From positions 1,984,001 through 2,048,000 of the forward strand of contig CM114271.1 of assembly GCA_050084515.1 (NCBI GenBank): a DNA stretch of 64,000 bases. Direction: 5' to 3'. Below the pieces are notes generated by a model. The model was not told the DNA's origin, ran no database searches, and saw only the letters and a program-made list of their open reading frames with translations. The stretch's first letter is position 1, and each line of letters begins with the position of its first letter. Shown piece by piece: positions 691-39,900 of this stretch. This DNA comes from Blasia pusilla. Taxonomy: Eukaryota. A program made the translations under genes and the position numbers.

Positions 691-832
691 ATTAATAGCT
701 CATGTTTAAATGTAACTCTCCTACCAATATTTACAAGACCCCTTAAGATGACCAAAAGTATGTTTGAAAAAAGTCTAGTGACACGTGTTGGATAGAGGAC
801 CAGCTATAGAAAACTCCATCCTCCAATTAGTA

Positions 833-12390: not shown

Positions 12391-12720
<330 letters not shown>

Positions 12721-16775: not shown

Positions 16776-17600
16776 TGTCGCAACCCTAGGGACTCACACA
16801 AGGATGGAAATGCATCAAAGCCTTGTAAAATGAGGCATGAATTGTAAAATACAAGATACGAGCCTTAATGGGCATCTCAAACGATGAAGCTTATGATATG
16901 GAAGAGCATGACCAAATACGAGGTGGAACTTGAAGAGTGCTCAAGCCCTATATAGAGAGGCTCCAAGAAGGTTACAACCTAGCTTTGACTAGGCTTAATG
17001 TTTGATTTTTCTCTATGTTTGAGTTCATGACAACTAGAGTTGGTAGACTTAAGATAATTTTGGGTTGAATACGATGGTATTGGAAAGATTATGAGGAGCA
17101 AGTTTTAAAACTCTAACACAACAAAGATTCATAAAACCATATTATTAAAACTCTTGCAATAAGCCCAAAAGTGTTGGCATGAAAGTGTGGATTGAGGACC
17201 ATAAGTAGTAGTCAATAAGGGATACTTGGGAAAGAGGAGGGCTAAAGATCTCTAGCACCATATGTATAGAAGGTAGAGGGTTTTGAAGGGAGTTTGAAAA
17301 CTAAACCTTGCCTTGGAAATCATAATATATGAATTTTGAACAAAGGGTATGAGATGGACTATAAGGTTAACGTTGAGGTTTTGACGCCATTCCAAGTCTG
17401 GTTAGATAATTTTGGGATCCTAACCTTGGACCTTGATTTAGGGCATACATGTTGAGTCTTGGTTAAAAAAAATTTGGGATCCACAGGGTAGTTGGGATGG
17501 TCACTTGCACTAGCATTGTTTTAGGTCCATAGACTATGAAGGAGGCATGTCCCAAGTCTTAAATGACTTGATTATATTGGAGAGTTAAGTGGGCATTTGA
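16776..17600 (+). mobile_element. Degenerate LTR of the chromovirus-like family at 58348
   Basis: Starts TGTCGCAACCCT. Shares motifs (GATGGAAATGC, TGAGGCATGA, ATGACCAAA..GGTGGAACTTGA, CAACCTAGC) with 52847-53080 and with the reverse copy at 28175-29097. The right boundary is approximate. Confidence 0.5.
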
Positions 17601-19607
17601 CCTTATTTAGGAATTTTGAGCTTGAAGAATGATCCAATGTGTAGAAGAAAAAAAAAAAAAAAAAAGGCTCCCCCATCCACCTATTCTTGAAAGTAAGGCT
17701 ATGATACAAGCATAATAGAAAGTTTTAGTGCTAAGAGCCACATAATTACACTAAGGATGTGAGAATGCTATGATTGTCTTGGAAATGCATATAAGTTCAC
17801 TATTTTATTCATATAATATTCAAAAAAAGTAACTTTATGGAATGGAATATGTTGAAACTCAATCTATTAATGGTGGAAATGTATTTATTTTAAGGTATTT
17901 GCAACTACCCAACAATCTCAAATTGCTATCCTTTCCTAGTAGTGCTATCCCTAAAAACCTATCCTTCTTTCTTTCCTAAAATTAAATTAAAGTTTGTTAG
18001 ATTCTAATTGAAATGAATATTAACTAGCATTTGGTCAAATAGGGCTATAAAGGAGTCTATCCCACTAGAGTGGCCCAGATAATAATATAAGGATCTCTCC
18101 CCATATGAACCAATGAAAGAAGGGATAAAGGTGGAGCAGGAGGGTTGATGATTGAAGTAAAGGAAAGTTAGGGGAACAATAAGAGGAGGATCATAAGGAG
18201 AAGAATATTGAAGATTATCTCAAAAGAGGGTTTTGATTGGCTAGGGCATACAACAAGGTTTTGAACATCGCCAATAGCTATCACCAACAAGAGCTTAGAG
18301 GATTTCCTATGGTCTGAATCTTAACTTAGCAAAAGGTTGCATGGGGATGTTGCGTCCCACTTACATAGTTTGTGACAATCACATCCATCACTCCCATTCT
18401 GAGTTGAGCACTATTATCCCTTTGTGAAAAAAATTAAAGGAATAAGATCAATCTACTAGTAACTAGTATCTCAAGCATTCCTCAGACTTCAAGATACAAT
18501 GTATGTAGGGGGATTGAAGTAATGCTAATAGATTTCAGCACAAGTGACTATCACAATGATATTCGTGTAAACTCTTTTTGGTAATTGAGATTTTTATACA
18601 TTGACCACATGATTTATTTTTCCATTGAAATAAATCTTATTTGTTAATTTTTATTGATGAAAATATCCCCTCCTCCCTACCTTTGGAGAGAGAAAGAGAG
18701 AGAGAGAGAGAGTAAAAATATTTTGCAACAACAAGATACTTTGCAAGGATACATAATCCCACCATTATATCTATGATGCAATCTTACACTACAATTAGAA
18801 GGTACTTGCGTTTGTGGCAACTATAGTTCAATAAGACAAAAAAATCTAGTCACAATCTAGCTACTTATGAATTACAACAATTTTTTCGCTATCGATAATT
18901 CACACTTCAAAATTATAATGCCTTGATATTCTTATCTCATCACTAAAATAAGTCTAATTTGCGAGTCTTCTTAGTGGCAAACTACTTGTAAAAAAGAGTT
19001 TTCCATGAAATTTTTTTACTTCAATTGCAATCTAAAAAGGAAATTCTTATACTCGTAGAAGACTCACAAAGTAGACAAAAATAAATCATTAGTACACATA
19101 AAATTTTTAGTCCAAAATTCTCCTTTGCAAGTCTGATGTGAGTGTCGTACTTGTAAATTTTTGAGTTTATTGTACGTAGTTAGCGAGTAACTTATAGCTT
19201 CCAATACTCAAAAAAAAAAATTATCTATGAAAGTATAGTTGCTTAGAATTAGAAAATTTCTTGCAAATATATTTTTTAATCTAAAAATTAATGATCACTC
19301 GGAAAAGTTCAAAGAGTAAATGATTTGATGATACAAAAACAACATTTGATTGAAGAAAATTAAGGTCAAGAGTCGGATCACATTGTGTATATCCAAAATA
19401 TTGGTCAAAAAAATGACTTTGAATTTACAAAACTAACGACTAGTCCTATATGGCTAGCGTGCACATAGCATGCCACATGATTTCCTAGCTAGACGTGCAC
19501 ATGTAGATATTATAGGTGCAAATGGCTCCATATAAACCACCACCTCAATACCTACATATAATTGTGTAGACATAATCCAAGATGTGCCCTAAGAAGGATT
19601 TGCACTA

Positions 19608-20121
19608 TGTCACAGCTGTTAGGATAGATCGGCAAGATCTAGTAGAGCGCCTTTGGAGATGCTAGAGGACAGCCCTAGGAGGTCGAGGATGACCTTCTTG
19701 GGCCTTGGGTAACCTGAGAGAACAAGTTTTCCCTTCGTTTCGGCTCATTTGGAGCCATATAGAGAAACTTACTATTTTGGATAAGTTTCCATTTAGAATA
19801 TAGTTAACTTTCCACTTTTTTTAATGGCCCTTGACCCGCTACAACAAGTCAAGAGCCAAGGAGATGACCTGCGAGCACAAGTTACAATGGAGAGGACTTA
19901 AGAGAGGGAAGGGGGTATACCTCGAAGAGAGAGAGCTTGAGAGCTCATTCTCTCTTTGTTGAACCTCTTGGCACGAGGTGGCGGAGCTATGGTCCCTTGC
20001 CTTTTGAGTGTAACCCAAGCCTCTCATTAGGAGAGTGGGTTTGGTTTGACATTGAGAGAGACATGTGAGAGTGCACACATGTTAGAGCTATGGCGTTGTG
20101 AGAGAGATTTGACCTTATTTT
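19608..20121 (+). repeat. Repeat A1 (5' terminal repeat, about 514 bp)
   Basis: Direct repeat of 27527-28044 and inverted homologue of 53819-54333. Homology ends at GACCTTATTTT, after which unique leader follows rather than module C. Confidence 0.9.
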
Positions 20122-20777
20122 ACAAAGACAAAATGAGAGGGTGAGAGAGCTTAAATGGAGGAGCTCACTGGTTACTTGTTGTTAGTGCGGCTGGGGGCCG
20201 TGTTTCCCATTTAGCGGCTCATGGGAGTGCTCAGCGGAGTAAGCGCTACGTGTTTTACTATTTTCCATTGCGGATTTTCTGTGTGGAAGAGTGGCGCACG
20301 GAAGCGCTGCCCAAATTTCTTTAGAGATGAAGTTTGGGGGCGGATTTCCCCATTCTAGTGCTCTCGGGAGAACCAAGTAGCTTGCTAGTTTGTGATTTTA
20401 CAGGTCTGAAGTTTTGTGTGGAAGAAATTAGTGCAGAAGCGCTGCCAATTTTGTCCTAGAAGTGCAGATTTAAAGGGCTGCATGATAATTCCTATCAGTT
20501 TTCTTTGGGAAAGTTGAATGAATTTTTTTTTTGTCACAGATCTCAAAGCTGTGCACGTTATAGAAGAAATGGTGCCCAATTTTGAGCTGTGAGCAAAAAG
20601 TTATGGTTGATCTTGCAAAACTGCCATTGCTAGGCAAATTTTAGGGTAAAATTGTTCAAACCCTAAATGGTTTTCTAACACTGCTCAGAGCTGCGTTTGG
20701 ACGTTGTTCGTCGTTGGTTGCCATTTCCGTAATTTCCATTACGGAGAGGATGGTCTTCCATGATGACCGTTGATTCT

Positions 20778-21960
20778 ATGACAATCGTCTCTTCATTGGA
20801 TTGGTTTCCATGAATTTGGCCATCACCCAAGTTCTTGTCTGCACAAATACTACCATCTCACGAGCTTGTGCAAAAATCATATCCACCCATGGCCATTTAT
20901 CCCACTCTTCGCAGACTAGATCAAGAGAATGCGCTACATATCTACCCCAAAGATTATGAGGGAACTTTGCTTTGATAAGTTTCCGTGTTGCTCGCTCATT
21001 GCTAGCATTGTCTCTCATAAGTTGCAACACATTCTCTAGACCGATGCGCATGACAGTCTTCTCTATGTGACTTGCCAACCATACCGCCGTTGGGGATTTC
21101 CCTTTGGTGTCCATCGACTCAATCATGACCTCATCTTGTGGACAAGAGACCATTATGTTCACTAAAGACTTGCTCCTCACATTGGTCCAAGAATCCGTTA
21201 TGATCGTGGCTCCCAAACATAAATTTTCCAATATATTCCATCGATCTTTTGTTTCACCTTCCCCATATGTTTCTCAAGTAGGATGGTGCGCAACGAATTG
21301 TAACTAGGACATGAGTAACCCTTCACCTTGTTGTTGCCAATATTGCTTCTTTGAAAGCATCTTGCCGTACTACGTTGAATGGTATTCCACATTCGTAAAA
21401 ACACTTTGCCCACATGCCATTCGCAACTTCTATTCCTTGGATGTTGAAAGAATTCCTCAGATCAGTTGGCTTCTTCCCAGAACTACTACTCCCTCGAATG
21501 GGCCCAACAACTCCTCTGCATTCCTCGAGATTGTCACTCGATGGCATGTCCACAACCCCATCAATATTTTGTACAACATAAACACTATTCCTTGTTTGTT
21601 GCGAACCTATTTATAATGGAGTCGTCTCTTCCACTTCACTCAAAGGTCTCGCTTCCCTTCTTTGTCCATTTCCCACTAGTATCCTGTTTCGGAGATCCCG
21701 TTGCACGCTGGGAGGGACCTTCATCCATAATTTGGCATGATGGGTATCCTGATTCCCATCCTTTTTCTTCTGTCTCTCTCATGTAAAATGCTCCACCATC
21801 CCCGTGATATGATAGGTTTTCATAGAATAGGAACAATACTTGCACTGCCATCTGCTTGATGTTCCACCTTCCATCTATACTTCTTCCCAATGTTCCTTCA
21901 AAATCTGTTGGAGTTCTCTGGCTTTGGTCATGACTACATGCACTCACTAACCCCACCCAA
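20778..21960 (-). pseudogene. hAT transposase remnant (DUF659-type N-terminal catalytic region)
   Basis: WAKCFYECGIPFNVV, PSYNSLRTILL, GATIITDSWTNVRSKSLVNIMV, IGLENVLQLMRDNASN, YVAHSLDL, split across frameshifted ORFs. Confidence 0.85.
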
Positions 21961-22196
21961 AAATATTTGTAAAATTTGCAAAAATTTATTAGATCAATAT
22001 TAATATCTATCGATCAGTAAAATGTATGCAAATTATACCAAATATTGTCCGTAAATGCTCCAATAACAAAACTTGGAACACTCACTATGAACAAGAAAGA
22101 TTAATATGCTAACCTAGATAACCGAAATACCTTTAGTATCAAGGTTATCTGGTGGGAAAAAATATTCTCACTCATCAAGTTCAATTATCTATGGAG

Positions 22197-22231
<35 letters not shown>

Positions 22232-24745
22232 TGAAGGGAGGAATGAGATTGTGAGGGTATACAAAAATGAGCAAGTTTATATAGGGGAGGATAGAAGGAA
22301 GAGAATGAACCCTTCTAACTCCCCAAATCATCTACCCCCATTTACAATTGATTACTAAACCATCTCTATTAATTTTCTTTAATAAACCTATTTTTATTCT
22401 CCTATTAGATTCCTTCTTGACCTATCCTAACTTCTTGACCTAGTTTAAATTTCTAACAGACCTATTTTGCAATACAACCACCCTATTCAAATCTATTTTA
22501 ATACTCTCATTCCTTTCTCCACCACTACAATCCCAAATTCATCAATTACTCTCATTTCTAACTAACCTATATTCTCCTACAACAACCCTATTCCAACCTC
22601 TCAAACCGTCAATTACCCAAACCATAATAGTGACAAAATTTATTTAATACCTCACTAAAATCATAGGGCCCGCCTACAAGCCTGGCCCGCACGGCTTGCA
22701 AGGAGCCTGTGCACGGCCTCGCGCCCTATCTCGCATGCGGGCTCCAAGGCTCGTAAGCAGCATGCAGTACGGACCATCCGCAGACTCGGCCTCAAGGATG
22801 TGCTGGGCGCCCGCATGCAAGCGGGCCCTAGCTCAAGACGCCAAGGCCCAATGAGAGCCCGCACTATGGGCCTTGGAGTCCGCGCATAGGCTCTACGCGG
22901 GCTCTAGGGCCCGCAACTACCCCGCGTTTTCTTGCTCGGCGGTCCGCATGCGAGCCCACGCCGTAGCCCGCACCCTAGCCCGCAATGAGCCCGCGCGAGG
23001 GCTTGGCGGCTTGCATGCAAGCCCGTGCTGGGCTCCCAGGCCCGCAATCAACCCACACATGGGCTCCGCGGCCGCACCCTAGCTAGCATGCGGGCTCCCA
23101 GGCTCGAAAGCAGGCCGGGCTTCAGGGCCCACACCTTAGCCCGTAGACGGGCTCCAAGGCATGCCACCTAGCCCGCATGTGGGCTCGGCCACCCACAAGC
23201 AGCCCGGATGCGGGCTTCAGGGCCCGCACCCTAGCCCGCAACGAGCCCGTGCACAAGCTTCTAGCCCCACATCCTAGCCCGCACGCCGCGCTCGCTTGCA
23301 GTCTGCACCTTGGCCTATAACCTTCATCAGATCCCGCACCAGCGGCTTGCAAGTGGAGCCCGTGTGGTCGATCTGGGCACCATAAAAACCGGTGCTTGCG
23401 CCCGATGTTCCATGTCTGGACATGTCCGTTGTCGTGTCGAGAGCGTGTCTTTGAGTAAGGGCAGATCTTCTAGCTGCAGTAGACGTGGTTGATGCAAGTC
23501 AAACTCTATAATAATTTTTCCTTTTTCTATACAGAATTATTATGTAAACTCTTCATTCTCGCACGATAGGAATCACAAATGGTAGTGCAAAGGCGATCAC
23601 TTCTTCATAATATGGAACCTTGAAATTCATAACTATGAAATCTTTGTAAACTACTATACGTTTGTACACAAGGAAAATAGCACAACTAGTGTTAAACCCT
23701 ACTCGAGCAGGCCTATTGACGTCCATGGATAGCAATATAAGGACATACAAAGTGCAATCCCATGTCCTTTCGTACGTGACTATAGGAAAAATCATTGGAG
23801 TTAGAGATTGCATGACCTGGTTCATGAACACATCCCCAAAGTGATAAACTAGATAGCGAGTGAACCAGTGCCTATCTACAAAGAGAATCTTGACGTTGTA
23901 CGGGTTAAGGAAAGGAAAATCAGGCACAACTCGTGCTCCATCCTTATCCATACCTGACAAAAATCCTCTACTCTCCTCTACAATGGAATTTTCCGGAGTT
24001 GCTCTCCCAAGAGGGGTAATCCACTCTCATTGGGAAAATAAGAAGCCAAACCATCATCTATTTCTAGTATGACTAAACTCATCTAAGGTGACAAGTTTCT
24101 CATCTCCACACATACCACATTCTAGAAACCTCTCGAAGAATAGACCAAAGTCAAGTTACTCTCCCAAGAAGGATAATCCGCTCTCATTGGAAGAGCAAGC
24201 AATCTCAAAGCCATACACTCAAGAGAGAGACTCAAGATGTGAAGTAGAAGGTGATGAACCCTTGAAGGTCCCTTCTCTTAATATACTCACAAGGGATCCA
24301 CAAGAGTACGAAATATGGCTAATCTTATCTTGTGCCTCATGACTTCCTCTCAAGCCTTAGCCAATCATATTTTGACACAAGTAGATTACCTCTTATCTCT
24401 TCCAAAATATCCTCTTTTACTCCCTTCACATCTTCCAAACTACCCCACTAACCCTAGCCACCAACCAAGACTACTTTTGCTTTTATTTTATTAAATCATC
24501 AACCCCATTACTTTACTTTTCTAATCCCATCTTTTATTTATTATCTCTTTTTTCCTAAAGTTGGGCCCCCTCAAATAAATCACCCTAACGAGGTTTAAAC
24601 ATGAGAATTTTATTTTCTTAGGCTAATTTACTTAATACTAATAAAAATATTTCTAACACTTAATGATAGAGGAGTTTACATAGTGGGTGATTTTACTATA
24701 CGACATCGTCCCATGGACGGACTTATCCGTTTTTGTGCAACCTTG
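20778..24745 (-). mobile_element. Truncated hAT element nested in copy 1
   Basis: One TIR, GTGCAACCTTG at 24735-24745, identical to the MITE TIR at 32741-32751. GC-rich AGCCCG-type repeats at 22660-23400. Transposase remnant at 20778-21960. Confidence 0.7.
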
Positions 24746-24746
24746 G

Positions 24747-27230
24747 CGACATCTAGAGGAGGTGTTTCGACGATTGCAATTACATGGGCTGAAGCTACAT
24801 CTAGGCAAGTGCAAGTTCTTCTATGACCAAATTAAGTACCTGAGTTATATGATATACCCAGATTGCCTTGGTGTGCAACAGACGAAGATAGAGGCTATTT
24901 CACACATTCCACGCCCCTAAAGATGTATGTCAAGTTCGTGCATTCATGGGATTGGCGAACTTCTATCAACGGTACGTCAAGGGTTTCACTTCGATTGCGA
25001 AGCCGCTAACCTTACTGACCAAGGTGGATCAGGAGTAGCAACGGGGAATGAGCAGGAGGGAGCATTTAAGCTAGCTAAGGATATATTGACGTCCGCACCC
25101 ATATTAAAGAGACCGATCCAGGGGCGTCCTTTTCAGTTACATATTGATTGGAGCATGTTGGGGCTTGGAGCCGTGCTTATCCAGCATGACGATGAGGGTA
25201 GAGAGTTCGTGGTGGCTTATGCTAGTCGCTCGAACAACGCTGCCGAAGCGAAGTTTAGCTCGTATGAGGGTGAGTGCTTGGTTGCATTGTGGGCTGTCAC
25301 ACATTTTAGGTGTTATCTATTCGGCAACCCCTTTACCATCATTACTGATCATCAACCACTTAAATGGTTGATGGAGTCCGACAAGCTTAAAGGGAAGGTT
25401 GCGAGGTGAACTCTTTTGTTGTAGGAGTATGACTTCTAGGTGGTGCATAGACTTGGGATGCTCAAAGAGGAAGTAGATGGTTTGAGCCATAATCCATGCC
25501 TAAGTGAGCAAGATGCAACTAGAGCTTGTTAGCATGGTGAGAGTGATGAGGAGTTGGTGTCAAGATGGCACGGTTCAGCCTATTTGGGCTTGTTGGCTAT
25601 AGAGAGCCAGGTTGCTGAGACTTTGATCTGATGGAGAGTCATTAGATCCACATGCCGGTGAGGAGACAATAGGTGGCCGAGATATTCTCGACGATGGAGT
25701 AGTCTTGGAGTACCTACGTACTGGCAGCATTGCGAGCCATACAGTTCCGGTGGGAGAAGACACATGTATAGCAAGTTTGGGAGGATGGTAGAGTGCGTGT
25801 AGTGCCTCATCCTTTGCAAAAAGCACGTTTGGTGCATCATGCCCATGAGGAGTTGGATCATTTTGGAGTGACGCGGATGTATAGCTTGCTCCAGATACAG
25901 TATTGGTGGCGAGGCATGCAGACTGACATTCAGCAGTTTATTGCTGGGTGCGTGGTTTGTGATCGGGTCCGGGCATCGTTCAATGCTCTGACTCCATAGT
26001 TGCATCCACTTCCGATCATGGGTTTAGGTTATAGATGGAGTTTGGATTTTGCAAGACCTTTACCTTTGACAGAGCGCCATAGTCGTTATGTGTTGGTGAT
26101 GCTCGAGCACTTCTCAAAGTGGATAGAGTTGATTGCATTGCTTGACAAAGCAAGTGAGGGAGTAGCGAATGCCTTCCTAGATCAAATGCTGAGTTATTAT
26201 GGCGCACCAGTTGAGGTGTTGATAAACCAGGGTACAAAGTTTCGCGGGGAGTTTCAGTCTTTGTGTGATCAAGCGTTGATTGACCACCGCATCACTTCGC
26301 GAGATCACCGCATCACTTCCCGAGAGTTGTGAGAAAATAGAAAGTGCCAAAATCACTTAAATCTTTACAAAACTTAGAGATACAAAGTGGCTTAGTCCGT
26401 CTGTGCACTCACAGAAGAGCTTCTATGGAACTTGAACATGGAGATAACTTGACATACGAGAAGGCGCTACCGGTGCGGCTCCAGACTATTTCACTACTCG
26501 GGAAACTAGGGTTTTTACCTATTTTTCTTCGTTTCTATTAATAGAAATAAATAAAAATATAGGGTTAGATAATCCCACTTCCTGATGCAATATAGAGTTA
26601 GATAATCCTAGTAACACTACTCCTGAAATGACCTACGTCACATTACTATGACTCCTTCGACGTCTAAGTTAGAACCATCAATCTAGGCTTCTCCTCATAC
26701 AAGGGGGCCGATCAGATTAATGGTGCTGAGAGAAGTGGATGTTGAGAATCCAACAAGAGTGATGCCCATGGCATTTGACAACTTGGCGATTGCGCAACAT
26801 CAGGATACGTTGAGGTATGCGACTATTTGGGGAGGTAATTATCAACCTACTATGCGGAGGTTTGATTAGGGAGACTATTTCTACTTGCAGCAGACGGTAC
26901 CCATGACGTTGGATGTGACTGCGCACTATCTTGAGAGTGCGTGAGGTTTTGCCATATGGTGTCCTCTTATTGGAGGGACGCGATGGTATGGTTTGGAAGG
27001 ACCATGTGCATAATTGTGCACCATGTCACCCTCCTAACATTGACAGTACAGTTGATCCGAGCTTAGCACTAGTTCTTGCAGGCTTGCGATGTATGTTGTG
27101 TGGTTATGCCTGTGGTGCAGCCACTATGCTCGTCTGTGATGGCTGTTCGAGAGGATGGCATATGACATGTCTGATGACACCTCTCACTAGGGTTCCTCAA
27201 GGATGATGGATGTGTCCCAAATGTACATAG
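24747..27230 (+). pseudogene. pol remnant: RT C-terminus, RNaseH, integrase and C-terminal PHD finger
   Basis: RHLEEVFRRLQLHGLKLHLGKC; FQLHIDWSMLGLGAVL...VAYASRSNNAAE...YEGECL...ITDHQPL; integrase HHCC (HAHEELDHFG...CVVC) and core WSLDFARPLP...EHFSKWIE; PHD CMLC...MLVCDGCSRGWHMTCL...WMCPKC. Many stops, and a foreign insert at about 26325-26740. Confidence 0.92.
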
Positions 27231-27396
27231 AATAGGTAGTTCTAGATTTTGACTTGTGTCTATGATAGGGATGACAAGAAGGCGACTAACGAGCACCCAA
27301 CCTTTTTGCTTTTAGCGTCCGAGAGATGTATGTCATGGTAGGTAGGGATAGATGGCTATCTAGAGTTATAGAGACCTGACCACCAAGTAGGGGTTG

Positions 27397-27524
27397 ATTG
27401 GAGATATTTTGGTACTTCTTGTCTCGTTGTTTGGATGCCATGAAATAGCATGGGATCTTGTGTGTTTGTGTGTATGTTTGTTGACAGCGATGTATGTTGT
27501 GTAGCGATATATATGCGCATGACA
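27397..27524 (+). repeat. Repeat C1 (128 bp), preceded by a G-rich PPT-like tract and ending CATGACA
   Basis: Direct repeat of 28045-28172. Upstream is TAGGGGTTG (TAGGGGGGCG in copy 3). Confidence 0.88.
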
Positions 27525-27526
27525 AC

Positions 27527-28172
27527 TGTCATGACTGTTAGGATAGATCGGCAAGATCTAGTAGAGCGCCTTTGGAGATATTGGAGGAGAGCCTCATGAG
27601 GTCGAGGATGACCTGTTGAGGCCCAGGGTAACGTGAGAGAGAAGGTTTCCCCTTCGTTTCGGCTCATTTGGAGCCATATAGATAAAGTTACTATTTTAGG
27701 TAAGTTTCCATTTGGAATATAGTTGACTTTCCACTTTAGGAGGTGACCCTTGACCTGTTACAATAGGTCAAGAGCCAAGGAGGTGAGGTGCAAGCACAGG
27801 TTATCGTGGAGAAGACCTGGGAGAGGGAAGGGGGTATACCTCCAAGAGCGAGAGAGAGCTTGAGAGCTCATTCTCTCTTTGTTGAACCTCTTGGCACGAG
27901 GCGGTGGAGCTATGGTCCCTTGCCTTGTGAGTGTAACCCAAGCCTCTCATTAGGAGAGTGGGTTTGGTTTGACATTGAGAGAGACATGTGAGAGTGCACA
28001 CATGTGAGAGCTATGGTGTTGTGAGAGAGATTTGACCTTATTTTATTGGAGATATTTTGGTACTTCTTATCTTGTTGTTTGGATGCCATGAATTAGCATG
28101 GGATCGTGCGTGTTTATGTGTATGTTTGTTGAAAATGATGTATGTTGTATAGTGATGTGTATGCGCACGAAA
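27527..28172 (+). repeat. Repeats A2 (27527-28044) and C2 (28045-28172), the 3' terminus of copy 1
   Basis: A2 starts TGTCATG two bases after the CATGACA of C1. The A2|C2 junction is GACCTTATTTT|ATTGGAGAT. Confidence 0.9.
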
Positions 28173-28174
28173 AC

Positions 28175-29097
28175 TATCGTGCGCCTACTCCCTTGAACGT
28201 TAGTCTTATGTATTGCGAAAGCTTGCGTTCAATTAACAAGTAATACCCTCCTTATTAATCTGCACCCAAACACTCTCACATTAGCCCCAATTTTCATCTC
28301 TTGAGTCTTGGTCTCAAGTCATCCTTCAAGCTCAACCAATCTAGACGGGGTGAAATCTTTATTGATCTTACCCTCACTCCCCAACACAAGTAAGTCCTTC
28401 AATACTTGGGAGAGACTTCCTTGATAGTCTAGGAACCTAAAGTAGCAGCGGCGTGCCATTTGCCAAACGGTCCTAACTGCCCAATAGATCTCGAATGAGT
28501 CTCTAACCATGACTCAATATTTGAGTCATGGATCAAGGTCTAAGGTTGGTGTCCATAACTGGCCCACTCGGACTTGGATTGATATTCAAATCCTGAAGTT
28601 ATTCTCTCAATCCATCCCGTTCCATTGGTTCACCCCCATACCACTCCTTATGATCCTCAACCCAACTATCATTTTGATAGCTTGGGCATGGTTTTTAGAT
28701 CTCTCCTCATGCGTTTGTTTGGATTTTTAGTGCATTGGAATTTTCTTCTCATAACCTTTCCAAATGCCACCTAATTCACCATAAACCCAACTTTGGTCCA
28801 GTCGTTAAAACCTCAAACATGGAGAAACCCAAATGCTCAATCAAGTTTCATGCTAGGTTGAAGTCCCTTTTGCGCCCAACTCTTGTGGGACTTTAGCTCT
28901 TCTCAAATGTGGCTTGAAGTTTGGTCTTTTTCAACTAGGTTACGACCCCCATCATTTGAAATGCCCATCAAGGATCATGTCTCACTTCTATGACTCATGT
29001 CTCACTCATAAGACTCCGACGCACTTCCATCTGAGTGTGAGCTACTATAGTTTTGATGTTCCACGTTGGCACCTGTTTGGTTATGAGGGTTGTAATA
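28175..29097 (-). mobile_element. Solo LTR of the chromovirus-like Gypsy family (reverse orientation)
   Basis: Both ends align with the ends of LTR 58348-59027. Its 5-bp TSD TGCAC is at 29098-29102 and at 19601-19605, split by the copy 1 insertion. Confidence 0.8.
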
Positions 29098-32751: not shown

Positions 32752-33299
32752 CCAACCTCCACTAATCCATCCTCCAAAAGGTCCAACGTCCTACTCTGAA
32801 TCAGGTCCCTCTCCATATCACTATAGCGGTAGGGACGACGGAAGATTGGCGTATCACTAGCCAAATCAATCCGTATACTGGGTCCAACCAAAGCACCCAA
32901 CTCCTTCATGCTAAAGGCAAAACAACTCCTATAAGCACGAGGAACCGTGTCAGCGCCGTTTCTCACCTCCCGTAAGCTTGGGCCCAAGTAATGGCTCCCA
33001 AGTCTCCTCCACGGCACACTAGAGAGAGGACGACGCCATTGGTCGCTATGCAACCCCTCACAAGATAGTACACCCTTAGCTACACCATCATCGAGCAAAT
33101 AACTCCTCCACCAAAGATGAGCAACCAACTCCACATGCCCAGCCATTACATCCCATTTATTCCAAGGATGCAAAATACTACTCTCCTCGCCCCCAGCTGA
33201 TGCCTCTATCGTCTCGGTATCCATCGAGCTCATCACAAGGGGTGGAAGACCCACAGACATAGTCCCAAGTTGACGCTGCTCGGCCATACCAAGACTCAA

Positions 33300-34240
33300 A
33301 ATCCAGGTCAAACAATTCAGGTCCATGGCTTGACCCAACACATGTCGTCGTGAAGCCTCAGAAATGGAAGCAACCGTTGTCACACCAATAGCAAATCCCA
33401 TCGCACGCTCTCTCTCATCAGCGTTAGGCACCACCAACTATTGCACATGAGAATCCCATACAAGCCCAGGACCACCTTCCGTGTAGGCATGTGACGAGGG
33501 AAAACTCACAAATGTGGGTAGTGCCATCCTAGCCTGCCCCACACGATTCACCACTGCCATGGGTGACCGATCAATAACCCTCACCACCTGAGAAAGTCGC
33601 CCACTATCCAAGATACTATCCATTGTAAGGCAAGGATCCCACTGCACTGCATCATATGCTTGACGTAGAACCTCCCTAGGCAATAAGTTTGTCCACCACA
33701 AGCGTGGACGATGTGCACGCAAGCCAACTCGCGCTGCATCCAACAACACCACTAGTCCAATCCAAGACTGCACCTCATGAACACTCGCCATCATCGGGTC
33801 CAAGTGTCACCCAACAATGGAACATTCTCCAGAATGTAAGCTGGAGCACGTGCCTGATGAACCTGAAGATGTCGTAATACCGATAACATCTCCCAAAACA
33901 ATCAAGACCTAGGGTCGTGTAATCCCTCACCACGACCAGCACGTGTATGACCCTAACATGGCCATCCAGAAATCACCAAATCCACAAGACCAACCCTCTT
34001 AAGGTCTTGCGCCCCCAACAATGCAATGTGTGACGGCAAAGCACGCTGGTACCCACGAATTGCTAATAGCGGCAACAACTCAGGATATCTCCGCATCAAC
34101 TGACTGATATGTCGGGATGAGACTCTCTGGGCTGTCTCATCTCGCTCCACATACACGGATCTCCGCACAGGAATACCGGACTGCAACATTGTAGCCAAAC
34201 CAGTGGTAATCCCACCAAAGAGATCTAACACAGAAATGCC
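33300..34240 (-). pseudogene. DNA (cytosine-5) methyltransferase catalytic domain, DNMT3-like, inside retrotransposon pol
   Basis: Motifs in canonical order: I VLDLFGGI; II YVERD; IV VDLVISGWPC* (TAG, probably ex-CAG, giving PCQ); V GEGLHDPRS*LFWE; VI YILENV; VII-VIII LLDAARVGLRAHRPRLWWTNL; IX ERERAMGF; X SRRHVLGQAM. Motifs V and VI were hand-translated from 33955-33815. Confidence 0.92.
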
Positions 34241-34689
34241 CTCCGGCGGATATTGCCATACAATGGGTTTAGTATCCAAAGGGGATAACCCAAGTGGACC
34301 AGAAGTAGGAGTCCGCCGTGGGGCCTCCTCTTCCTCGTGAGGTATAAGAGCCTCACACCAAGCCTCCTACACTAGGCGATCAACCTCTTGCCGTAGTGCA
34401 CCGCCTAAACTCCAAAGTGGCACATCCAACGATGAGGATGCCACTGCTGCAAAACTAGGGACCTCCTCATGCACAGGAGAATCCATAGCAGAAACATTAC
34501 CCTCCAAAAAGTCTCCTGGCCAAGTGACTACTCCACTAAAACCAGCCACAGATGCTAACATCGTTGGAGAAGACCCTCCTGGTCGAGCCCCATAAATAAA
34601 TCTCACAGGAACTTGGCTCATACGTCCATCCCCGGACTGCCAACCAGGTCTATAAGACATTGTCTCAGTCCAGTAATCCATCTGAAAAC

Positions 34690-35000
34690 CCATCGGGTAC
34701 AATACTGCTCCTCCAACTAGTACATCATACGACTCGGCTGATGTGACCACTGCAGGTACTCCCAACCGGGAGCTATCAGTCGCATGATCTGGTCTCAACT
34801 GTATAGAAAAATTCTCCCGTATCATGAATTGAGACCTATCATTGGCTCCTCCAAGTGATGTTTGAATCTGGAATGGGCAAGGCTCAAGCTCTGACCTCCA
34901 AATATCCAAACCAATACATGTCGCCTTTCCCAACATCAAAGGTTGGGCACCAAAGTCTAACAAGACTCTATGTGGTCTATACACATGTCCTGTAGGACTC
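34690..35000 (-). pseudogene. Retropepsin-like aspartic protease domain
   Basis: VLLDFGAQPLMLG (decayed D-S/T-G) and C-terminal YDVLVGGAVL in ORF 35125-34367. Confidence 0.7.
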
Positions 35001-35819
35001 ACCAATCGGAATATCCCACTCTGGTTGTACAACATACATACACTAGGTGTAAGCCTCTCACGATCAATGGGCTGGTCGGGCTGGTAATGCATCCATCTTC
35101 GCCGCTGCTGCCTGCCAAGTAGCACTGGTACTCAATGCTACACTTGACATAGAGGGTCGCTCCACCGCAACACCCTCATCCACCTCAACACGTATAGTAG
35201 TAACACCCCCACGTTCACACAATGTGGCTGCTAGCTGAAATATAGGAGCTAAGTCAACTCCTAAAGCCATCAGTTCCATGGCCGAAAACAATGGGGATCC
35301 CAACACGGTTGCCATCCGCATATCTGATCGATGTCGATCTGTGTCTACTACACGCGATGTAGATGCCTCAATCCCCACTGTCGGCTCAATAGGATGCGTA
35401 GGAAGCATGGATGGAGTCCTAAGCACCTCAGACAACAAGAATGACTGGGGAAGCCTAGCGTGCCTCCCAGCCTCATCCCTCTGTGGGTCCAACTCTATAG
35501 TAGCACCACGTGGCTCTGATGCTCGAGTGGCTCCTCTCGTAACTGCAGCTCATGCCTCAACTTGTGCTGCACTCGCCATATAAGAGAGATCATCCCCTCC
35601 ACAAGAGGTGGGAGCCCCTGCTCCCGAATCTGATCTATGTTGGATACCAGCCATAGTAGCCAACTTTGCTCCAATCGCCAATCATGGCGACCATAGTTGA
35701 CTCTGAGTAGTGGTAGGGGTAGCCACCGTGAGGCTCTCCAACCACTAGTCCACCCCTACCACCTCTACCACCTCGGCCTCTCTGAGTTACTCTCCACCAT
35801 GCCGCGGCGGCCTCGATCT

Positions 35820-36950
35820 CAACTCGATGAAGATCAAAGCAACGCCTCGAGGATGGCCTGGTCTCCCGCAATGATCACACTAAGTTGGGGCCGATCGAGG
35901 CCCATCCTCCAAAGTCCGTCTCCCATCCTCTTGGGGACAAAACCTCCTAACATGATCACCTCCACATGTCCAACATGATCGCCCTTGCTGCGGGGCAGCA
36001 AATGAAGGCAATGGTCTCTGCGCAAGTGTCCTCTAGGACTGGACCGAGGTCGTGTGTACCCCAGACTCCCACTACTACTACCACCACCACCACTACTACG
36101 AGATCGTGAGGTGGGTCACGAACACGAGAAGTAGTAGTTGTATCCCTCTTGAATGCGGATGTCACCACTCTCTCCTTCACCATGTTAAGCTCAATCTTCT
36201 CAGATAGAGCAAACACATGGGTTAATATGGGTGAATCATCACTCATAAGAGTAGCATCACGTACCCTGCGGCGCAACTCTGTGTCCAAGATCCCATACCA
36301 AAACTGGACTGCCTAAGCCTTAGTCACACCCTGGGTAACTGAAATCAAGCATTGCATACGAGTGTATGCCTCACGAAGACTCTCACCAATCTTTCGCTCA
36401 AATTCCTGAAGACTCCTCAACTTCTCTGTCTTCACTCCCTGATAGTTCTTCTTCAACCTCTTGAAGAACTCTGCAATCGGGCTGAACGATGGTGGGGCAC
36501 TAGTACCTCAACTAGTACCCCCATTGGTACCTCCTTGGGTACCTCCACTAGTACCCCCACTCCGGCTTGTACTCGTACCACTCAACGTCGGGATGGCTGG
36601 CATAGTAGGAGCACTACTATCAATACCACCATGGGTGATAGACACATAGCCTGGAGACCAATATTGTCTCCACGCCTCAATCTCAGCAACATGGTCCTTC
36701 CTAAACTCATGGTAATCATCCATGGGTGGTCCCTCCAGGTGCTGAAACAACCCCTTCCAAGCCAAGAAGGGTGTAAACAACGTGGTGTTCCGCAACATCT
36801 ACATATCACACCACGTATCAAACTCCTGCATGAAGTCCTCCAACTCAATGGTGCCCACTGCACTCGAGTATCGTTGTGGGCCCGTCCATGTCCCAAATCA
36901 ATGGAGCTGCAACACTCGATAACAACGTAGAAGACTCGGTGTTTGGAACA
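35820..36950 (-). pseudogene. gag remnant with two zinc knuckles
   Basis: Hand translation gives CWTCGGDHVRRFC (about 35975-35935) and CDHCGRPGH..CFDLH (about 35880-35825, frameshifted). A capsid-like helical ORF lies upstream. Confidence 0.7.
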
Positions 36951-39900
36951 CCCTCGTCCTCCTCTTCATCAACCATCGGAAGTGGAAAAGGTAGTCGATA
37001 CCTCAATCCACTCCATGTAAAACCATCACTGTCCGCACTACGGTCGCCAACCAGACCACCAGACACCTTCGTGATGACCAACGCCGATGCCGCACCACCA
37101 CCAAATTACCACCACTAAGTAACCAAGTGACGTCGATGTCGCTGTACTATTCTAGCTCTACTAGCTATGGGTGTAGGCAACCTAACCTGTCATCACCACA
37201 AGAAGCCTCCCAGAGTCCACTGGTCATCACTCCAACCTCACTACCGGTAGCACGCAGGAGTAACACTACTCTGGAAATCAGCGTCAACCCTAATAATAGG
37301 CGCGCAAGCAAGAAGCAACGATGGAGGGGATCCAAACACAGGAAGTCCAACGACAACCCTCCAATCGCAAATGGAAATCAAGGTAACACAATCCACCAAA
37401 CGTGGCGTCCCCTGAATCCACATAACCCACCACACAATTCTAACGCAATAGCTACTCCGCTGCGGGTGCTAGTCGGACTCGCAGCACCTGAAAATATCAC
37501 CTGCATGGAGAGGCTACACCGTACTATGCGCTAGAGGTCCATCAACCAAAAACCTAAGATGCATAAAGCGCCTAACACATCTCCGGACAACACCAAATGA
37601 GCTACACCAGTGTGTACACTGGCATAGTTAAGAACTCAGCAGTTAAGCGACTTCCAGGCATAATAGCCCAAAGATGGGTGACCAGTTATGCAACACTCAA
37701 AGCAAAATCATGCAAAAACTGCCTCCTTGCTCCTTACTCTGCCTCTCACGCCCACTCGCCCCGAGCTACCATGAGTTGCCTCAAAGGCTTGAAACGACAT
37801 GCTCAAGACATGCCCCTATTGCGCCCTGTTAGCCACGCTTTGCTATGGAGAGAGGCCCAACCAGGGCATCTCCAGCGGGATAGGCGTCTCCAACAACAAA
37901 CAAGTCACCAACCAACCAGCCCCTCTAATCTGCTGTCCACCATAGCAGACCTTGAGCTAGTCCGCAAAATTTTGACCAGCAATTACTCCACAAATCCTCA
38001 ACCAAAATTGAATCTATTTCGACCAGAATTCAATTGATCACCATATTCCATACTTGCATATTGGCAGCGTCGCAAGCACAATGGGTGCTAGAGAGCGGGA
38101 TCGGATGTCATGCGAATCCACATCATCATACAACATACATCGTTGACATACCAGACTCACATACATACATAACATAGACGAGAGCATACACAAACACAAG
38201 TGTACCACAACTAAAATCCGTGAAAAACCTATTGTCATAAAACACGTATAGAATCACATACAATTGAGCCAAACCCACTCCGAGCTAGTCTGCAAAATTT
38301 CGATAAGCAATTTCTCCACAAATCCTTAACCAAAATTGAATCTGTTTTGACCATAATTCAATTGACCACCATAGCTATCTCTCCACAAAAAATCAGCTAC
38401 CACCAAGCTCTATACTCTGAGCTAAAAATCAGACAAACTTGCTGTCCATACACCTCCAGAATCGCAAATCCGACAGCGCTTCCACCCAGATTCATGCACG
38501 CAGAAATCCGCAACGCTCCACATACTCAAGCAAATAGCTTCACATGAGATCACAATACAAGTAGTAATAGGAACCTCTCACCCAATCTGGATGAACTTCA
38601 ACAAAGCTTCCGCACTCCAAGCTCTCCACATCAGAAAACCGTCGAACACGAACCAGAATCTTCAATCCTTGATAACTTCCAACTCCCTTGACGAAATCCG
38701 GCGATCTACAGCGCGTTGGAAAGCTCTCAGCAAGGCACTTTTTTCCCAACCAACCACGCACTAGATTCCCAACTCCAACATAGGCCACAAGCCACGAACA
38801 TCCACGGCTGAGTACACAATCAGCCCTAACTAGATCCTACTGATCCACAATTGAAGCTACCATCGATCTACTCTAGTTCTTTGAGTGAAATCCGTGAAAG
38901 ACCTAATGTCATAAAACACGTATAGAATCACATACAATCGAGCCAAACCCAGTCCACAATGGGAGAATCCAGGTCGAAGCTTGCGGGAACCACCATAGCC
39001 AAGAGCTCTACTCACTACCAAGGCTAACTCCCAACGCAACAGGCTCAACTCAAAGAACTAACTGTTCTTTGAGTGCACTCCACACTATATCCTCCAACCT
39101 AAGAGCAGGCCCTACTGGAAAAGTCAGCCTCAATGGAGTAACCCCCAGCCCTATGTATGAAATCGCATCTCTACCTAGACACTACGGCCCTACATAAGGT
39201 ATGGCCTCTACTAGCACACTATACTCTACGACATAATCCGTATGGTCATGACAGTGGTCACACAATTATGTGTATTGAAGAAAATTTGTTGGGAAAAATT
39301 GAATCTGGCGAGAAGAAAATCCGCGCAAATCCGACTGGTGTTAGAATTTTCTCGCTAAGCTGCATGTTGGTAGATTGTGCGTAGGGCTCAAGCATGCTAT
39401 CTCATCACACATAAGGACAATCAGAGTTGCTACCAGACTCATGGCGCAATCCCGCTCGATTGGGATCTCTACTGATGCGTGCAAGACACCCATGCACTCT
39501 TCTCAGAGGCACGCATCCTCATTCCTTCAGCTAACACTTCCCAAACAGGATCAAAAATATTTTGGCCAAGTGAGTGTGGGCGAGTACAAAGATCACTAAC
39601 CAACTCATATATTCACAAATAACTCAAAAAATACCATATTAAATATTATGCTTTATAATGTGTGGCACATTCTCTTTCCTAGAAGTAGCTGCGATCAAAG
39701 TTTCCTCGCCACACCCTCCTCCGATAATAGTAGCTACCCCGCTGCCACTTACTCTGGTGTTAGAATGATGCCTGGGTTGCCACTCACTCCACGTGGTAGT
39801 CAGCTCACTTCCACTCCACAAGAAACTCTATTTATCAGCACTCATGAAGATTCGAATGTTAACAGATGTGTGCCTCCAACAAGACGCGAGTTATAGGTAA

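What the first reader, a model, noticed from the sequence alone, without database searches (positions are those of the whole stretch)
19601..28180. Split, permuted terminal repeats (A...C-nn-A-C) on a DDE-integrase retroelement, suggesting integration of a 2-LTR circle
Seen: copy 1 is bounded by a 4-bp TSD (ACTA) and reads A1 (19608-20121), internal region, C1 (27397-27524), AC, A2 (27527-28044), C2 (28045-28172). The same C-nn-A-C 3' end occurs in copy 3, and an A-only 5' end occurs in copy 2. A primer-site-like sequence follows A1 and a G-tract precedes C1, so reverse transcription should give [C-A]-internal-[C-A]. However, the TG..CA integrase-type ends lie inside that unit, abutted as CATGACA-nn-TGTCATG. 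Inference: end-joining into a 2-LTR circle creates the A|C junction, which differs slightly between copies (TTTT|ATTGGAG vs TTT|AGGAG). Cleavage at one internal C-nn-A junction then gives exactly A-internal-C-A-C. Knowledge: split direct repeats are a hallmark of tyrosine-recombinase elements (PAT/Ngaro/TOC1), and abutted-end circle junctions are used by IS3/IS30-type DDE enzymes. Neither is the norm for Gypsy elements, where 2-LTR circles are considered dead ends.
Basis: partly seen in the sequence, partly recalled or inferred. Interest (0 to 1): 0.92.

Follow-up and report, generated by a model that had tools for sequence, protein, structure and literature searches.

The report
Gypsy retrotransposon with permuted, split LTRs
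A liverwort Gypsy-type retrotransposon family is always inserted as A-genes-C-A-C rather than LTR-genes-LTR, so its integrase cuts inside the repeat that reverse transcription builds; a related alga's element was drawn this way in 2018 but never explained.

Summary
Copy 1 reads ACTA | A1 19608-20121 | 7.3 kb | C1 27397-27524 | AC | A2 27527-28044 | C2 28045-28172 | ACTA. Copy 3 has the same C-nn-A-C 3' end, and copy 2 has an A-only 5' end.

It is a lineage trait, not a local accident. Among 80 related metagenome loci plus the window I found 17 independent A-int-C-nn-A-C ends and 11 A-int-C ends. None of 21 5' ends showed A-C-nn-A.

- The C-nn-A spacer is 2 nt in 20 of 20 junctions.
- 7 of 14 elements with both ends have a perfect 4-bp target-site duplication.
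- A G-run polypurine tract precedes C.
- A Tf1-like self-priming site follows A. It is complementary to an A-internal segment about 30 nt downstream of a TATA box.

So reverse transcription should build C-nn-A as the LTR, with the TG/CA integrase ends abutted inside it. Pol is PR-(DNMT)-RT-RNaseH-DDE integrase-PHD, and no tyrosine recombinase was found.

The A|C joint is variable and the spacer is fixed, as predicted. The strict polarity argues against random cutting of a free 2-LTR circle.

De Mendoza et al. 2018 noted the same repeat layout for KnitGypsy-Dnmt3, in a figure legend only. I therefore rate this a new member of a barely characterised kind. No circle or cDNA was observed.

The parts
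19604..19607 (+). 5' target-site duplication ACTA of copy 1
   Evidence: Same 4 nt at 28173-28176. 7 of 14 family elements with both ends have a perfect 4-bp TSD.
19608..20121 (+). A1: 5' terminal repeat. It starts TGTCA. It holds a TATA at 19916-19919 and the predicted RNA start/self-primer segment at 19946-19959.
   Evidence: 88.4% identical to A2. Segment 19946-19959 is complementary to 20122-20135 in 12 of 14 positions, read off. Most WGS reads have G at 20129, which would give 13 of 14.
20122..20135 (+). Predicted self-priming primer-binding site directly after A1
   Evidence: The homologous sites in relatives are exactly complementary to an A-internal segment over 10-16 nt: L019 16, window copy 2 13, L023 12, L012 11, L037 11, L045 10. 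Each has 0-1 of 200 shuffles reaching that length. L040's 11-nt match lies at a different, non-homologous A site; its homologous site has decayed.
20122..20700 (+). Family-typical 5' untranslated leader of copy 1 (end approximate)
   Evidence: WGS depth is about 500-1500 reads at listed variant positions 20129-20648, against about 8 in the low-copy bins 22711-23312.
20779..21273 (-). Foreign insert: hAT-like transposase fragment (DUF659). Not part of the element.
   Evidence: Pfam PF04937, E 5.9e-26. No similarity to gag/PR/RT of copies 2 and 3.
24747..27224 (+). Decayed pol remnant of copy 1: RT C-terminus, RNase H (24921-25406), integrase zinc domain (25772-25996), rve core (26000-26329), PHD finger (26919-27203)
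   Evidence: Pfam hits. tblastn of P0037 residues 247-1030. 1508 WGS reads carry other sequence upstream of 24746, so that breakpoint is private to this copy.
27384..27396 (+). Polypurine/G tract (AAGTAGGGGTTG) ending exactly at the start of C1
   Evidence: A G-run abuts C1 in 17 of 18 rows.
27397..27524 (+). C1: ends GCGCATGACA (integrase right-end type, CA)
   Evidence: 88.9% identical to C2; sequence.
27525..27526 (+). 2-nt spacer AC between the abutted CA and TG ends
   Evidence: The spacer is 2 nt in 20 of 20 independent junctions.
27527..28044 (+). A2: starts TGTCATGAC
28045..28172 (+). C2: joined directly to the end of A2 and ending the element
   Evidence: The joint equals the predicted cDNA right end plus cDNA left end.
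28173..28176 (+). 3' target-site duplication ACTA
53729..57679 (-). Copy 3: pol (57679-54650), G-run, C (54463-54340), spacer TC, A (54333-53820), C (about 53819-53729). The 5' part is not recognisable.
32754..39252 (-). Copy 2 (sister subfamily): A-only 5' end (39252-38886), priming site ACTCAAAGAACTA, leader, then gag/PR/DNMT-like/RT N-terminus down to 32754. It is truncated and holds an extra A-end+C piece at 38281-38106.

Best explanation
This is a decayed copy of a high-copy liverwort Ty3/Gypsy-type retrotransposon family. Pol is PR-(DNMT)-RT-RNaseH-DDE integrase-PHD, and the family is a relative of KnitGypsy-Dnmt3. Its repeat architecture is a circular permutation of an ordinary LTR.

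Shown:
- The integrated unit is TSD-A-leader-gag/pol-G tract-C-NN-A-C-TSD.
- The polypurine tract abuts C.
- A Tf1-like self-priming site abuts A. It pairs with an A-internal segment about 30 nt downstream of a TATA box.

Inferred from standard reverse-transcription logic:
- The RNA is A(from the start site)-...-C-NN-A.
- The cDNA is [C-NN-A]-internal-[C-NN-A].
- The integrase-type ends (TGTCATG... and ...CATGACA) therefore sit back to back, 2 nt apart, inside each cDNA LTR.

Inferred mechanism:
- Integrase assembles on the abutted pair in the left LTR. That LTR is the first to become double-stranded.
- It nicks 3' of each CA. With a 2-bp spacer this yields the usual recessed CA-OH ends with 2-nt 5' overhangs.
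- It inserts these ends with a 4-bp stagger.
- The two original cDNA termini (A end and C start) are joined imprecisely. This could be host end joining or an RT end-to-end template switch, and could happen before integration (as a 2-LTR circle) or after it (as repair of the break).
- The result is A-int-C-NN-A|C.
- Pairing the left A start with the distal C end instead gives A-int-C.
For: - Lineage-wide architecture: 17 independent A-int-C-nn-A-C 3' ends among 80 metagenome loci plus the window.
- TSD: 7 of 14 elements with both ends have a perfect 4-bp duplication, chance P about 5e-14.
- Polypurine tract: a G-run abuts C1 in 17 of 18 rows.
- Self-priming: exact 10-16 nt complementarity in 8 of 22 5' ends, with 0-1 of 200 shuffles reaching that length. 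In most of the 8 (L012, L019, L023, L037, L045, window copy 2) the match is between the A end/post-A sequence and the homologous A-internal segment; in L003 and L040 the match lies at another offset or A position. It covaries between groups (TAGTTTTTCTA/TAGAAAAACTA against TTCTTTGAGT/ACTCAAAGAA) and within a group (L013). A TATAAAA lies about 30 nt upstream of the segment.
- A1/A2 and C1/C2 are equally diverged (88.4% and 88.9%), as expected if both pairs were made in one cycle.
- The A2|C2 joint is the exact fusion of the predicted cDNA termini in 10 of 16 copies. It carries +1 to -3 nt changes in 6. In the moss group that is 5 of 11, against 0 of 13 at the same A end beside the priming site (Fisher P 0.011). 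In L027 and L031 the A2 end is shorter than the A1 end of the same element.
- The spacer is 2 nt in 20 of 20 junctions.
- The DD(35)E columns D721, D781 and E816 are invariant in 17 full-length relatives.
- No Phage_integrase hit in 4 intact polyproteins or in 10 of L045's 13 ORF pieces of at least 80 aa. None is listed among the precomputed Pfam domains of 120 relatives.
- More distant relatives with ordinary LTRs carry similar TGTTATGA...CACAACA termini, next to the polypurine tract and priming site.
- The family is abundant and transcribed on the sense strand in its own species.
Against: - No cDNA, circle or RNA end was observed. Every step after the anatomy is inference.
- All 30-odd copies examined are decayed. 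The longest stop-free ORF stretch is 449 aa, so none shows the active form directly.
- The left-LTR-first explanation of the polarity is my conjecture, with no direct support.
- The A end is AT-rich and low in complexity, so some joint indels may be later slippage.
- A-int-C copies (11 independent) could be later C1xC2 deletions rather than primary products.
- One locus (L018) ends C-nn-A|unrelated sequence.
- In window copy 1 the primer complementarity is only 12 of 14.
- An AAT-rich motif at the A end could place the poly(A) site inside C2. RNA fragment boundaries at 28027 and 28051 would fit that, and it would favour a templated (inherited) A|C joint.
Confidence: 0.55

Rival explanations
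1. Completed linear cDNA is end-joined into a free 2-LTR circle. Integrase then opens it at either of the two identical C-nn-A junctions.
For: It is topologically sufficient for A-int-C-nn-A-C. The A|C joint is variable and the spacer fixed. Foamy-virus integrase is reported to cleave the 2-LTR junction into processed linear DNA (PMC1180852, abstract seen).
Against: It predicts A-C-nn-A-int-C as often as A-int-C-nn-A-C. Observed: 0 of 21 5' ends, and 0 against 10-12 elements seen at both ends (P 0.001-0.0002). Collapse of that isomer into A-int-C by A x A recombination would need near-complete loss, while the C x C collapse of the other isomer stays rare. A 2-4-fold difference in repeat length does not explain that.
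Confidence: 0.15
2. A DIRS/PAT/Ngaro-like templated cycle carried out with a DDE integrase. The RNA runs from inside A1 into C2. The A2|C2 joint is inherited through the RNA. The internal C-nn-A junction serves as the template, like the DIRS internal complementary region, to rebuild the missing ends before integration.
For: The repeat layout and the strict polarity match those of tyrosine-recombinase elements (passages in PMC7192593; PMC5890265). An AAT-rich motif at the A end and RNA fragment boundaries at 28027 and 28051 could put the RNA 3' end just inside C2.
Against: A conserved, covarying priming site directly after A and a G-run directly before C fix the cDNA ends at A end and C start. 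The A2 end is trimmed relative to A1 within single elements (L027, L031). Joint indels are copy-specific. C2 lies downstream of the strand-transfer acceptor, so ordinary minus-strand synthesis would not copy it.
Confidence: 0.2
3. An ordinary A-C LTR element damaged locally (5' LTR truncated, partial LTR duplicated), or a nested insertion, or an assembly artefact.
For: Copy 1 is heavily rearranged inside. Copy 2 carries an odd extra A-end+C piece.
Against: The same boundaries, to the base, recur in 17 independent 3' ends and 21 5' ends. These come from different assemblies, with unrelated flanks and TSDs. No 5' end has C after A. The polypurine tract and priming site sit at the split points.
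Confidence: 0.03
4. A tyrosine recombinase encoded by intact copies integrates a circle, as in DIRS-order elements.
For: Split direct repeats are otherwise known only from that order.
Against: 4-bp TSDs are present. The DDE triad is invariant. No PF00589 hit in 4 intact polyproteins, in 10 ORF pieces of L045, or among the listed Pfam domains of 120 relatives. The leader and gag regions of most loci were not scanned.
Confidence: 0.02

Closest known systems
KnitGypsy-Dnmt3 of Klebsormidium nitens (de Mendoza et al. 2018, PMC5890265; passages seen, figure and supplements not seen)
   Same: It is a Gypsy-type Pol with a DNMT inside it. The Fig. 4c legend states that the repeats are arranged as in DIRS elements (A-coding-B-A-B). 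Klebsormidium proteins are among the window's relatives. L045 and the proteins P0088, P0046 and P0085 carry DNMT plus PHD.
   Different: The window's family is from a liverwort. The paper gives no TSD, polypurine tract, priming site, spacer or mechanism in the passages I read. DNMT in the window's own copies is seen only as tblastn similarity to the DNMT-bearing part of P0088, not by Pfam.
PAT-like and Ngaro elements of the DIRS order; TOC1 of Chlamydomonas (TOC1 recalled, not checked)
   Same: They have split direct repeats A1-internal-B1-A2-B2 with the same polarity (PMC7192593 passages).
   Different: Those elements encode a tyrosine recombinase and make no TSD. This family has a DDE integrase, TG/CA ends and 4-bp TSDs.
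Tf1 of fission yeast and the Tcn1 clade (self-priming). The Tf1 mechanism is recalled; the Tcn1 prediction is from a PMC6317226 passage.
   Same: There is no tRNA primer site. The sequence after the repeat is complementary to the predicted first bases of the RNA.
   Different: Tf1 has ordinary LTRs. Here self-priming is inferred from complementarity and a TATA box only.
Cleavage of the retroviral 2-LTR circle junction by integrase (PFV: PMC1180852, abstract seen; HIV-1: PMC1905944 and PMC4372172, search listing only)
   Same: A DDE integrase acts on abutted LTR ends inside DNA and produces processed linear ends.
   Different: In retroviruses this is a side or salvage route, and the provirus is not permuted. 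Here the abutted ends are part of every LTR and the permuted form is the norm.
Circle junctions of IS3/IS30-type insertion sequences (recalled, not checked)
   Same: Abutted inverted ends separated by 2-3 bp form a highly reactive transposase substrate.
   Different: Those are DNA elements. Their spacer comes from donor flanks, and there is no reverse transcription.
More distant relatives with ordinary LTRs in the same search (L059, L069, L063, L067)
   Same: Related RT-RH-IN. L059's LTR termini (TGTTATGA...CACAACA) and the CA end of L063 (...CGTCACA) resemble A start and C end.
   Different: In these, the polypurine tract abuts TG and CA abuts the primer site, and the LTRs at both ends are identical. 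The tblastn match ends before the PHD region (query residues up to about 870 of 1073).

Membership tests
Ty3/Gypsy (Metaviridae) LTR retrotransposons | Pol order PR-RT-RNase H-DDE integrase | tested here: met
   Copy 1 has RVT_1, RT_RNaseH, Integrase_H2C2 and rve in that order. Intact relatives have PR-(DNMT)-RT-RH-IN-PHD.
Ty3/Gypsy (Metaviridae) LTR retrotransposons | Two identical direct LTRs bounding the element, with the primer site after the 5' LTR and the polypurine tract before the 3' LTR | tested here: not met
   The 5' end is A only (21 of 21) and the 3' end is C-nn-A-C or C. The polypurine tract and priming site abut the split points.
Ty3/Gypsy (Metaviridae) LTR retrotransposons | TG...CA termini and a short target-site duplication | tested here: met
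   TGTCA...(A/G)ACA termini. A perfect 4-bp TSD in 7 of 14 elements.
KnitGypsy-Dnmt3-like elements | A-coding-B-A-B repeat layout together with Gypsy domains | tested here: met
   The definition is taken from the PMC5890265 legend.
KnitGypsy-Dnmt3-like elements | Cytosine-5 DNA methyltransferase domain inside Pol | tested here: inconclusive
   PF00145 is present in L045 and in P0088, P0046 and P0085. Copy 2 aligns to P0088 residues 113-635, which include its DNMT. Pfam found nothing in 10 ORF pieces of copies 2 and 3. Copy 1 lacks that region.
DIRS order (DIRS1, PAT-like, Ngaro) | Encodes a tyrosine recombinase | tested here: not met
   No PF00589. A DDE integrase is present instead.
DIRS order (DIRS1, PAT-like, Ngaro) | Integration without target-site duplication | tested here: not met
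   4-bp TSDs are present.
DIRS order (DIRS1, PAT-like, Ngaro) | Split direct repeats A1...B1-A2-B2 | tested here: met
Chromoviruses | Chromodomain at the integrase C-terminus | tested here: not met
   A PHD finger occupies that position. No chromodomain hit.
Self-priming (Tf1-type) retrotransposons | The first bases of the RNA are complementary to the primer-binding site | tested here: inconclusive
   Complementarity, covariation and a TATA box at about -30 were found. The RNA 5' end itself was not mapped, and the output did not resolve it.

The most novel reading that the evidence does not exclude
A whole clade of plant and charophyte retrotransposons may have made the LTR-LTR junction an obligatory, productive substrate. 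Their DDE integrase would always work on an internal pair of abutted ends, as IS3/IS30 transposases do on circle junctions. Joining of the cDNA termini, regarded as a dead end for retroviruses and Gypsy elements, would then be a required step of every cycle. That would be a third route to integration, between LTR elements and the tyrosine-recombinase DIRS order, and convergent with the latter's split repeats.
Probability: 0.4. Interest if true: 0.85.

Novelty: new member of a known kind. Interest (0 to 1): 0.7.

Why it matters
Textbook LTR retrotransposons integrate a linear cDNA whose ends are set by the primer site and the polypurine tract. Joined-end circles are counted as waste.

In this family the primer site and polypurine tract set one pair of ends, and the integrase signals plus TSDs set another. 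Some permutation step must therefore lie between reverse transcription and integration.

The family is abundant and transcribed in a liverwort, and it has relatives in mosses and Klebsormidium, so the question can be tested directly. It also has a practical side. LTR-finding pipelines that expect identical terminal repeats with flanking TSDs will mis-annotate or drop these elements. Split direct repeats can no longer be read as a signature of tyrosine-recombinase elements.

Tried and rejected
I replaced it with 80 related metagenome loci and one lay of reads.
- The genome search on the loci's records was not possible.
- Whole-frame translation of the internal region failed on 114 stop codons, so I scanned stop-free pieces instead.
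- BLAST and motif searches with copy 1's A found no third A. Copy 2's A appeared only with L040 as query.
- GCGCATGACA at 21046 is a chance match inside the hAT-like ORF, not a displaced C.
- Pfam found nothing in 10 upstream ORF pieces of copies 2 and 3.
- The look-up of sequencing runs listed no RNA holder among the indexed runs. The raw RNA runs I laid do carry family reads.
- The RNA molecule boundaries at 28027 and 28051 and the depth across C2 could not be interpreted, because C1/C2 and A1/A2 reads cross-map. Most loose-end and joint rows were not shown, so junction usage in the species' own genome remains uncounted.
- Literature searches for 'split LTR' plus Gypsy, and for PHD finger plus integrase plus Gypsy plus Marchantia, returned nothing. 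'KnitGypsy' occurs in one paper only. The search for 'split direct repeats' plus integrase plus LTR retrotransposon listed 10 of 11 papers; by title and abstract start none is about a Gypsy element. Supplements of PMC5890265 were not available and may hold element coordinates or terminal sequences.
- Hypotheses considered and rejected: the spacer is copied from the parent's flank (only copy 1's AC matches the start of its TSD; L040 and L027 do not); A2-C2 is a second insertion next to A-int-C (no TSD around it, and equal A and C divergence); A-int-C copies are all collapsed A-C-nn-A-int-C isomers (see rival 1).

Full report
**Observation**

A1 (19608-20121) and A2 (27527-28044) are 88.4% identical over 518 nt. 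C1 (27397-27524) and C2 (28045-28172) are 88.9% identical over 126 nt.

The sequence shows the 4-nt duplication ACTA on both sides. A starts TGTCA. C1 ends GCGCATGACA, followed by AC and then TGTCATGAC of A2. C2 follows the last T-run of A2 directly.

Copy 3 on the minus strand has pol (57679-54650), a G-run, C, spacer TC, A and C, then unrelated flank. Copy 2 on the minus strand belongs to a sister subfamily. Its A (about 39252-38886) is followed by non-C sequence. It was detectable only with the metagenome locus L040 as query, not with copy 1's A.

**What copy 1 contains**

Stop-free pieces give the end of RT, RNase H, the integrase zinc domain, the rve core and a C-terminal PHD finger. Upstream of 24747 there is no gag, protease or RT. 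About 20700-24746 is foreign:
- a hAT-like DUF659 ORF on the minus strand;
- GC-rich repeats;
- a repeat transcribed from the other strand.

In the WGS run, 1508 reads carry different sequence upstream of 24746, so this breakpoint is private to copy 1. The first few hundred bases after A1 are high-copy in the same run, with about 500-1500 reads at listed positions between 20129 and 20648. I therefore take the A1|leader junction as typical of the family.

**Relatives and spread of the architecture**

The closest proteins come from liverworts (Calypogeia, Riccia, Marchantia), unnamed assemblies and Klebsormidium. Many carry PHD, and some carry a cytosine methyltransferase domain.

A search of metagenome contigs with an alignment of 17 full-length relatives returned 80 loci. 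Self-comparison and BLAST with A and C libraries show the same split arrangement again and again. After merging duplicate loci (L011/L012, L031/L032, L021/L022, L020/L036) I count:
- 17 independent 3' ends of the form G-run|C-NN-A|C;
- 2 more where the contig ends inside A2;
- 11 independent ends where C is followed directly by unrelated flank (A-int-C);
- 1 locus (L018) where C-NN-A is followed by unrelated sequence.

All 21 independent 5' ends are A only. None shows A-C-NN-A.

The spacer is 2 nt in 20 of 20 junctions: AC, GC, AT, TC or GT. Of 14 elements with both ends, 7 have a perfect 4-bp TSD: copy 1, L027, L040, L002, L003, L026 and L049. Three more match in 3 of 4 positions. The chance probability is about 5e-14. 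Four of the seven perfect TSDs belong to A-int-C copies.

All these copies are decayed. The longest stop-free ORF stretch is 449 aa.

**Where reverse transcription should start and end**

A G-run abuts C1 in 17 of 18 rows. Directly after A lies a sequence that is exactly complementary to a segment inside A:
- 16 nt in L019;
- 13 nt in window copy 2;
- 12 nt in L023;
- 11 nt in L012 and L037;
- 10 nt in L045.

Each of these has 0-1 of 200 shuffles reaching that length. Two further 5' ends, L003 (13 nt) and L040 (11 nt), reach the same significance but with matches at another post-A offset or A position; in L040 the homologous segment has decayed. In all, 8 of 22 5' ends reach 10 nt or more, and the others are shorter.

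The pair covaries between the moss group and the liverwort group. Within the latter, L013 has changed both sides together. A TATAAAA or TATA lies about 30 nt upstream of the segment.

This is the layout recalled for Tf1, where the first bases of the RNA prime minus-strand synthesis. Neumann et al. predict self-priming for the moss Tcn1 clade (PMC6317226 passage).

In copy 1 the TATA is at 19916. Segment 19946-19959 pairs with 20122-20135 in 12 of 14 positions (read). Most WGS reads have G at 20129, which would add one more pair.

By ordinary reverse-transcription logic, which is inference here, the RNA runs from inside A1 to A2 and the cDNA is [C-NN-A]-internal-[C-NN-A]. The TG and CA ends that bound every insertion lie back to back inside that LTR.

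More distant relatives from the same search have ordinary LTRs, with the polypurine tract next to TG and CA next to the primer site; L059's termini (TGTTATGA...CACAACA) resemble A start and C end most closely. The split family therefore looks like a circular permutation of that LTR.

**Enzymes**

The columns D721, D781 and E816 (DD35E spacing) are invariant in the 17 aligned relatives. Four intact polyproteins show PR, DNMT, RT, RNase H, integrase and PHD, with no tyrosine recombinase. The same holds for 10 of the 13 ORF pieces of at least 80 aa in L045 and for the precomputed Pfam lists of 120 relatives. Together with the TSDs, this excludes a DIRS-type integration.

**The A|C joint**

In 10 of 16 copies the joint is the exact fusion of the predicted cDNA right end and left end. 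In 6 it differs by +1 to -3 nt: L005, L014 (which has one extra base equal to the first primer-site base), L027, L028, L031 and window copy 3.

In the moss group that is 5 of 11. The same A end next to the primer site is uniform in 13 of 13 (Fisher P 0.011). It also compares with about 5% expected per copy from the indel density of the alignment.

In L027 and L031 the A2 end is shorter than the A1 end of the same element. This fits a joint made anew and imprecisely at each cycle. The AT-rich A end could also slip after insertion, so I rate this evidence as suggestive.

**Mechanism**

Some joining of A end to C start is topologically required to get A-int-C-NN-A-C from the predicted cDNA.

Nicking 3' of each CA at a junction with a 2-bp spacer would give exactly the recessed CA-OH ends with 2-nt 5' overhangs that integrases normally produce. 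Foamy-virus integrase is reported to cleave the 2-LTR junction in this way (PMC1180852, abstract). Two HIV-1 papers were seen only in the search listing.

It is absent: 0 of 21 5' ends, and 0 against 10-12 elements seen at both ends (P 0.001-0.0002).

The left boundary is always the A start of the left LTR. Only the right boundary varies, between the adjacent C and the distal C.

My conjecture is as follows. The left LTR becomes double-stranded first, after the second strand transfer. Integrase then commits to its abutted pair. The cDNA termini are joined either before integration or as repair afterwards.

A templated, DIRS-like cycle with the RNA ending in C2 remains a live rival at about 0.2. 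RNA boundaries at 28027 and 28051, and an AAT-rich motif at the A end, would fit it. Cross-mapping made the read data uninterpretable on this point.

**The family in its own species**

In a WGS run of the coded organism A, depth over pol and the repeats is roughly a hundred-fold or more above the low-copy bins. Two RNA-seq runs give strand-biased reads over pol, C and A in the element's sense. The table shows only the best-supported rows, so I could not count junction types there.

**What is known**

De Mendoza et al. 2018 state, in the legend of Fig. 4c, that the repeats of KnitGypsy-Dnmt3 are arranged as in a DIRS element while the domains are those of Gypsy (PMC5890265, passages). I did not see the figure or the supplements.

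The passages I read give no TSD, priming or mechanism. 'KnitGypsy' occurs in no other held paper. Searches for 'split LTR' with Gypsy and for 'split direct repeats' with integrase found no description of such a Gypsy element.

**Verdict**

The window's family is a new, land-plant member of a kind already noticed in print. The open and interesting part is the mechanism, which these data constrain (a polar process, a fixed 2-nt spacer, an imprecise joint) but do not show.

Noticed in passing
window 20779-21273 (-): A hAT-like transposase fragment (DUF659, E 5.9e-26) sits inside copy 1. Its read depth is far lower than the retroelement's.
   Followed up: partly
window 23313-24746: A repeat of several hundred-fold read depth, transcribed from the strand opposite to the retroelement. 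No Pfam hit in its ORFs. It abuts the private breakpoint of copy 1 at 24746.
   Followed up: partly
window 38281-38106 (-), with direct repeats near 38300-38278 and 37975-37950: The leader of copy 2 holds an extra piece made of the last 64 nt of A joined to a complete C, that is, an A|C joint. It is bracketed by a direct repeat of about 20 nt. Origin unexplained.
   Followed up: partly
window 22720-23281: Degenerate GC-rich repeats (GCCCGCACCCTAGCCCGC-like units) with almost no read depth in the WGS run.
   Followed up: no
window 14039-15340, 12384-12725, 2820-3039: Tandem arrays: a period of about 350 bp, a dinucleotide-type run, and a 105-bp unit.
   Followed up: no
window 60951-61283 (+): A separate reverse-transcriptase fragment of another element lies on the plus strand, upstream of copy 3. 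This may be why copy 3's 5' end is not recognisable.
   Followed up: no
L018 13165-13457 and downstream: The only locus where C-NN-A is followed directly by unrelated sequence instead of C. It could be a deletion or capture of an unpermuted cDNA end.
   Followed up: partly
L045 8591-9937; P0088 residues 305-445: The cytosine-5 DNA methyltransferase domain lies between protease and RT in moss/liverwort relatives, and a PHD finger lies at the integrase C-terminus. This extends the DNMT-carrying Gypsy type beyond Klebsormidium.
   Followed up: partly
L002 and L003: Two different A-int-C insertions share the TSD TACA. Other TSDs (CATA, ACTA, ATAA) are also A/T-rich with CA or TA. This may reflect a target preference.
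   Followed up: no
window 832-1231 vs 42497-42881; 16831-17266 vs 52921-53337: Further dispersed repeats unrelated to this family.
   Followed up: no
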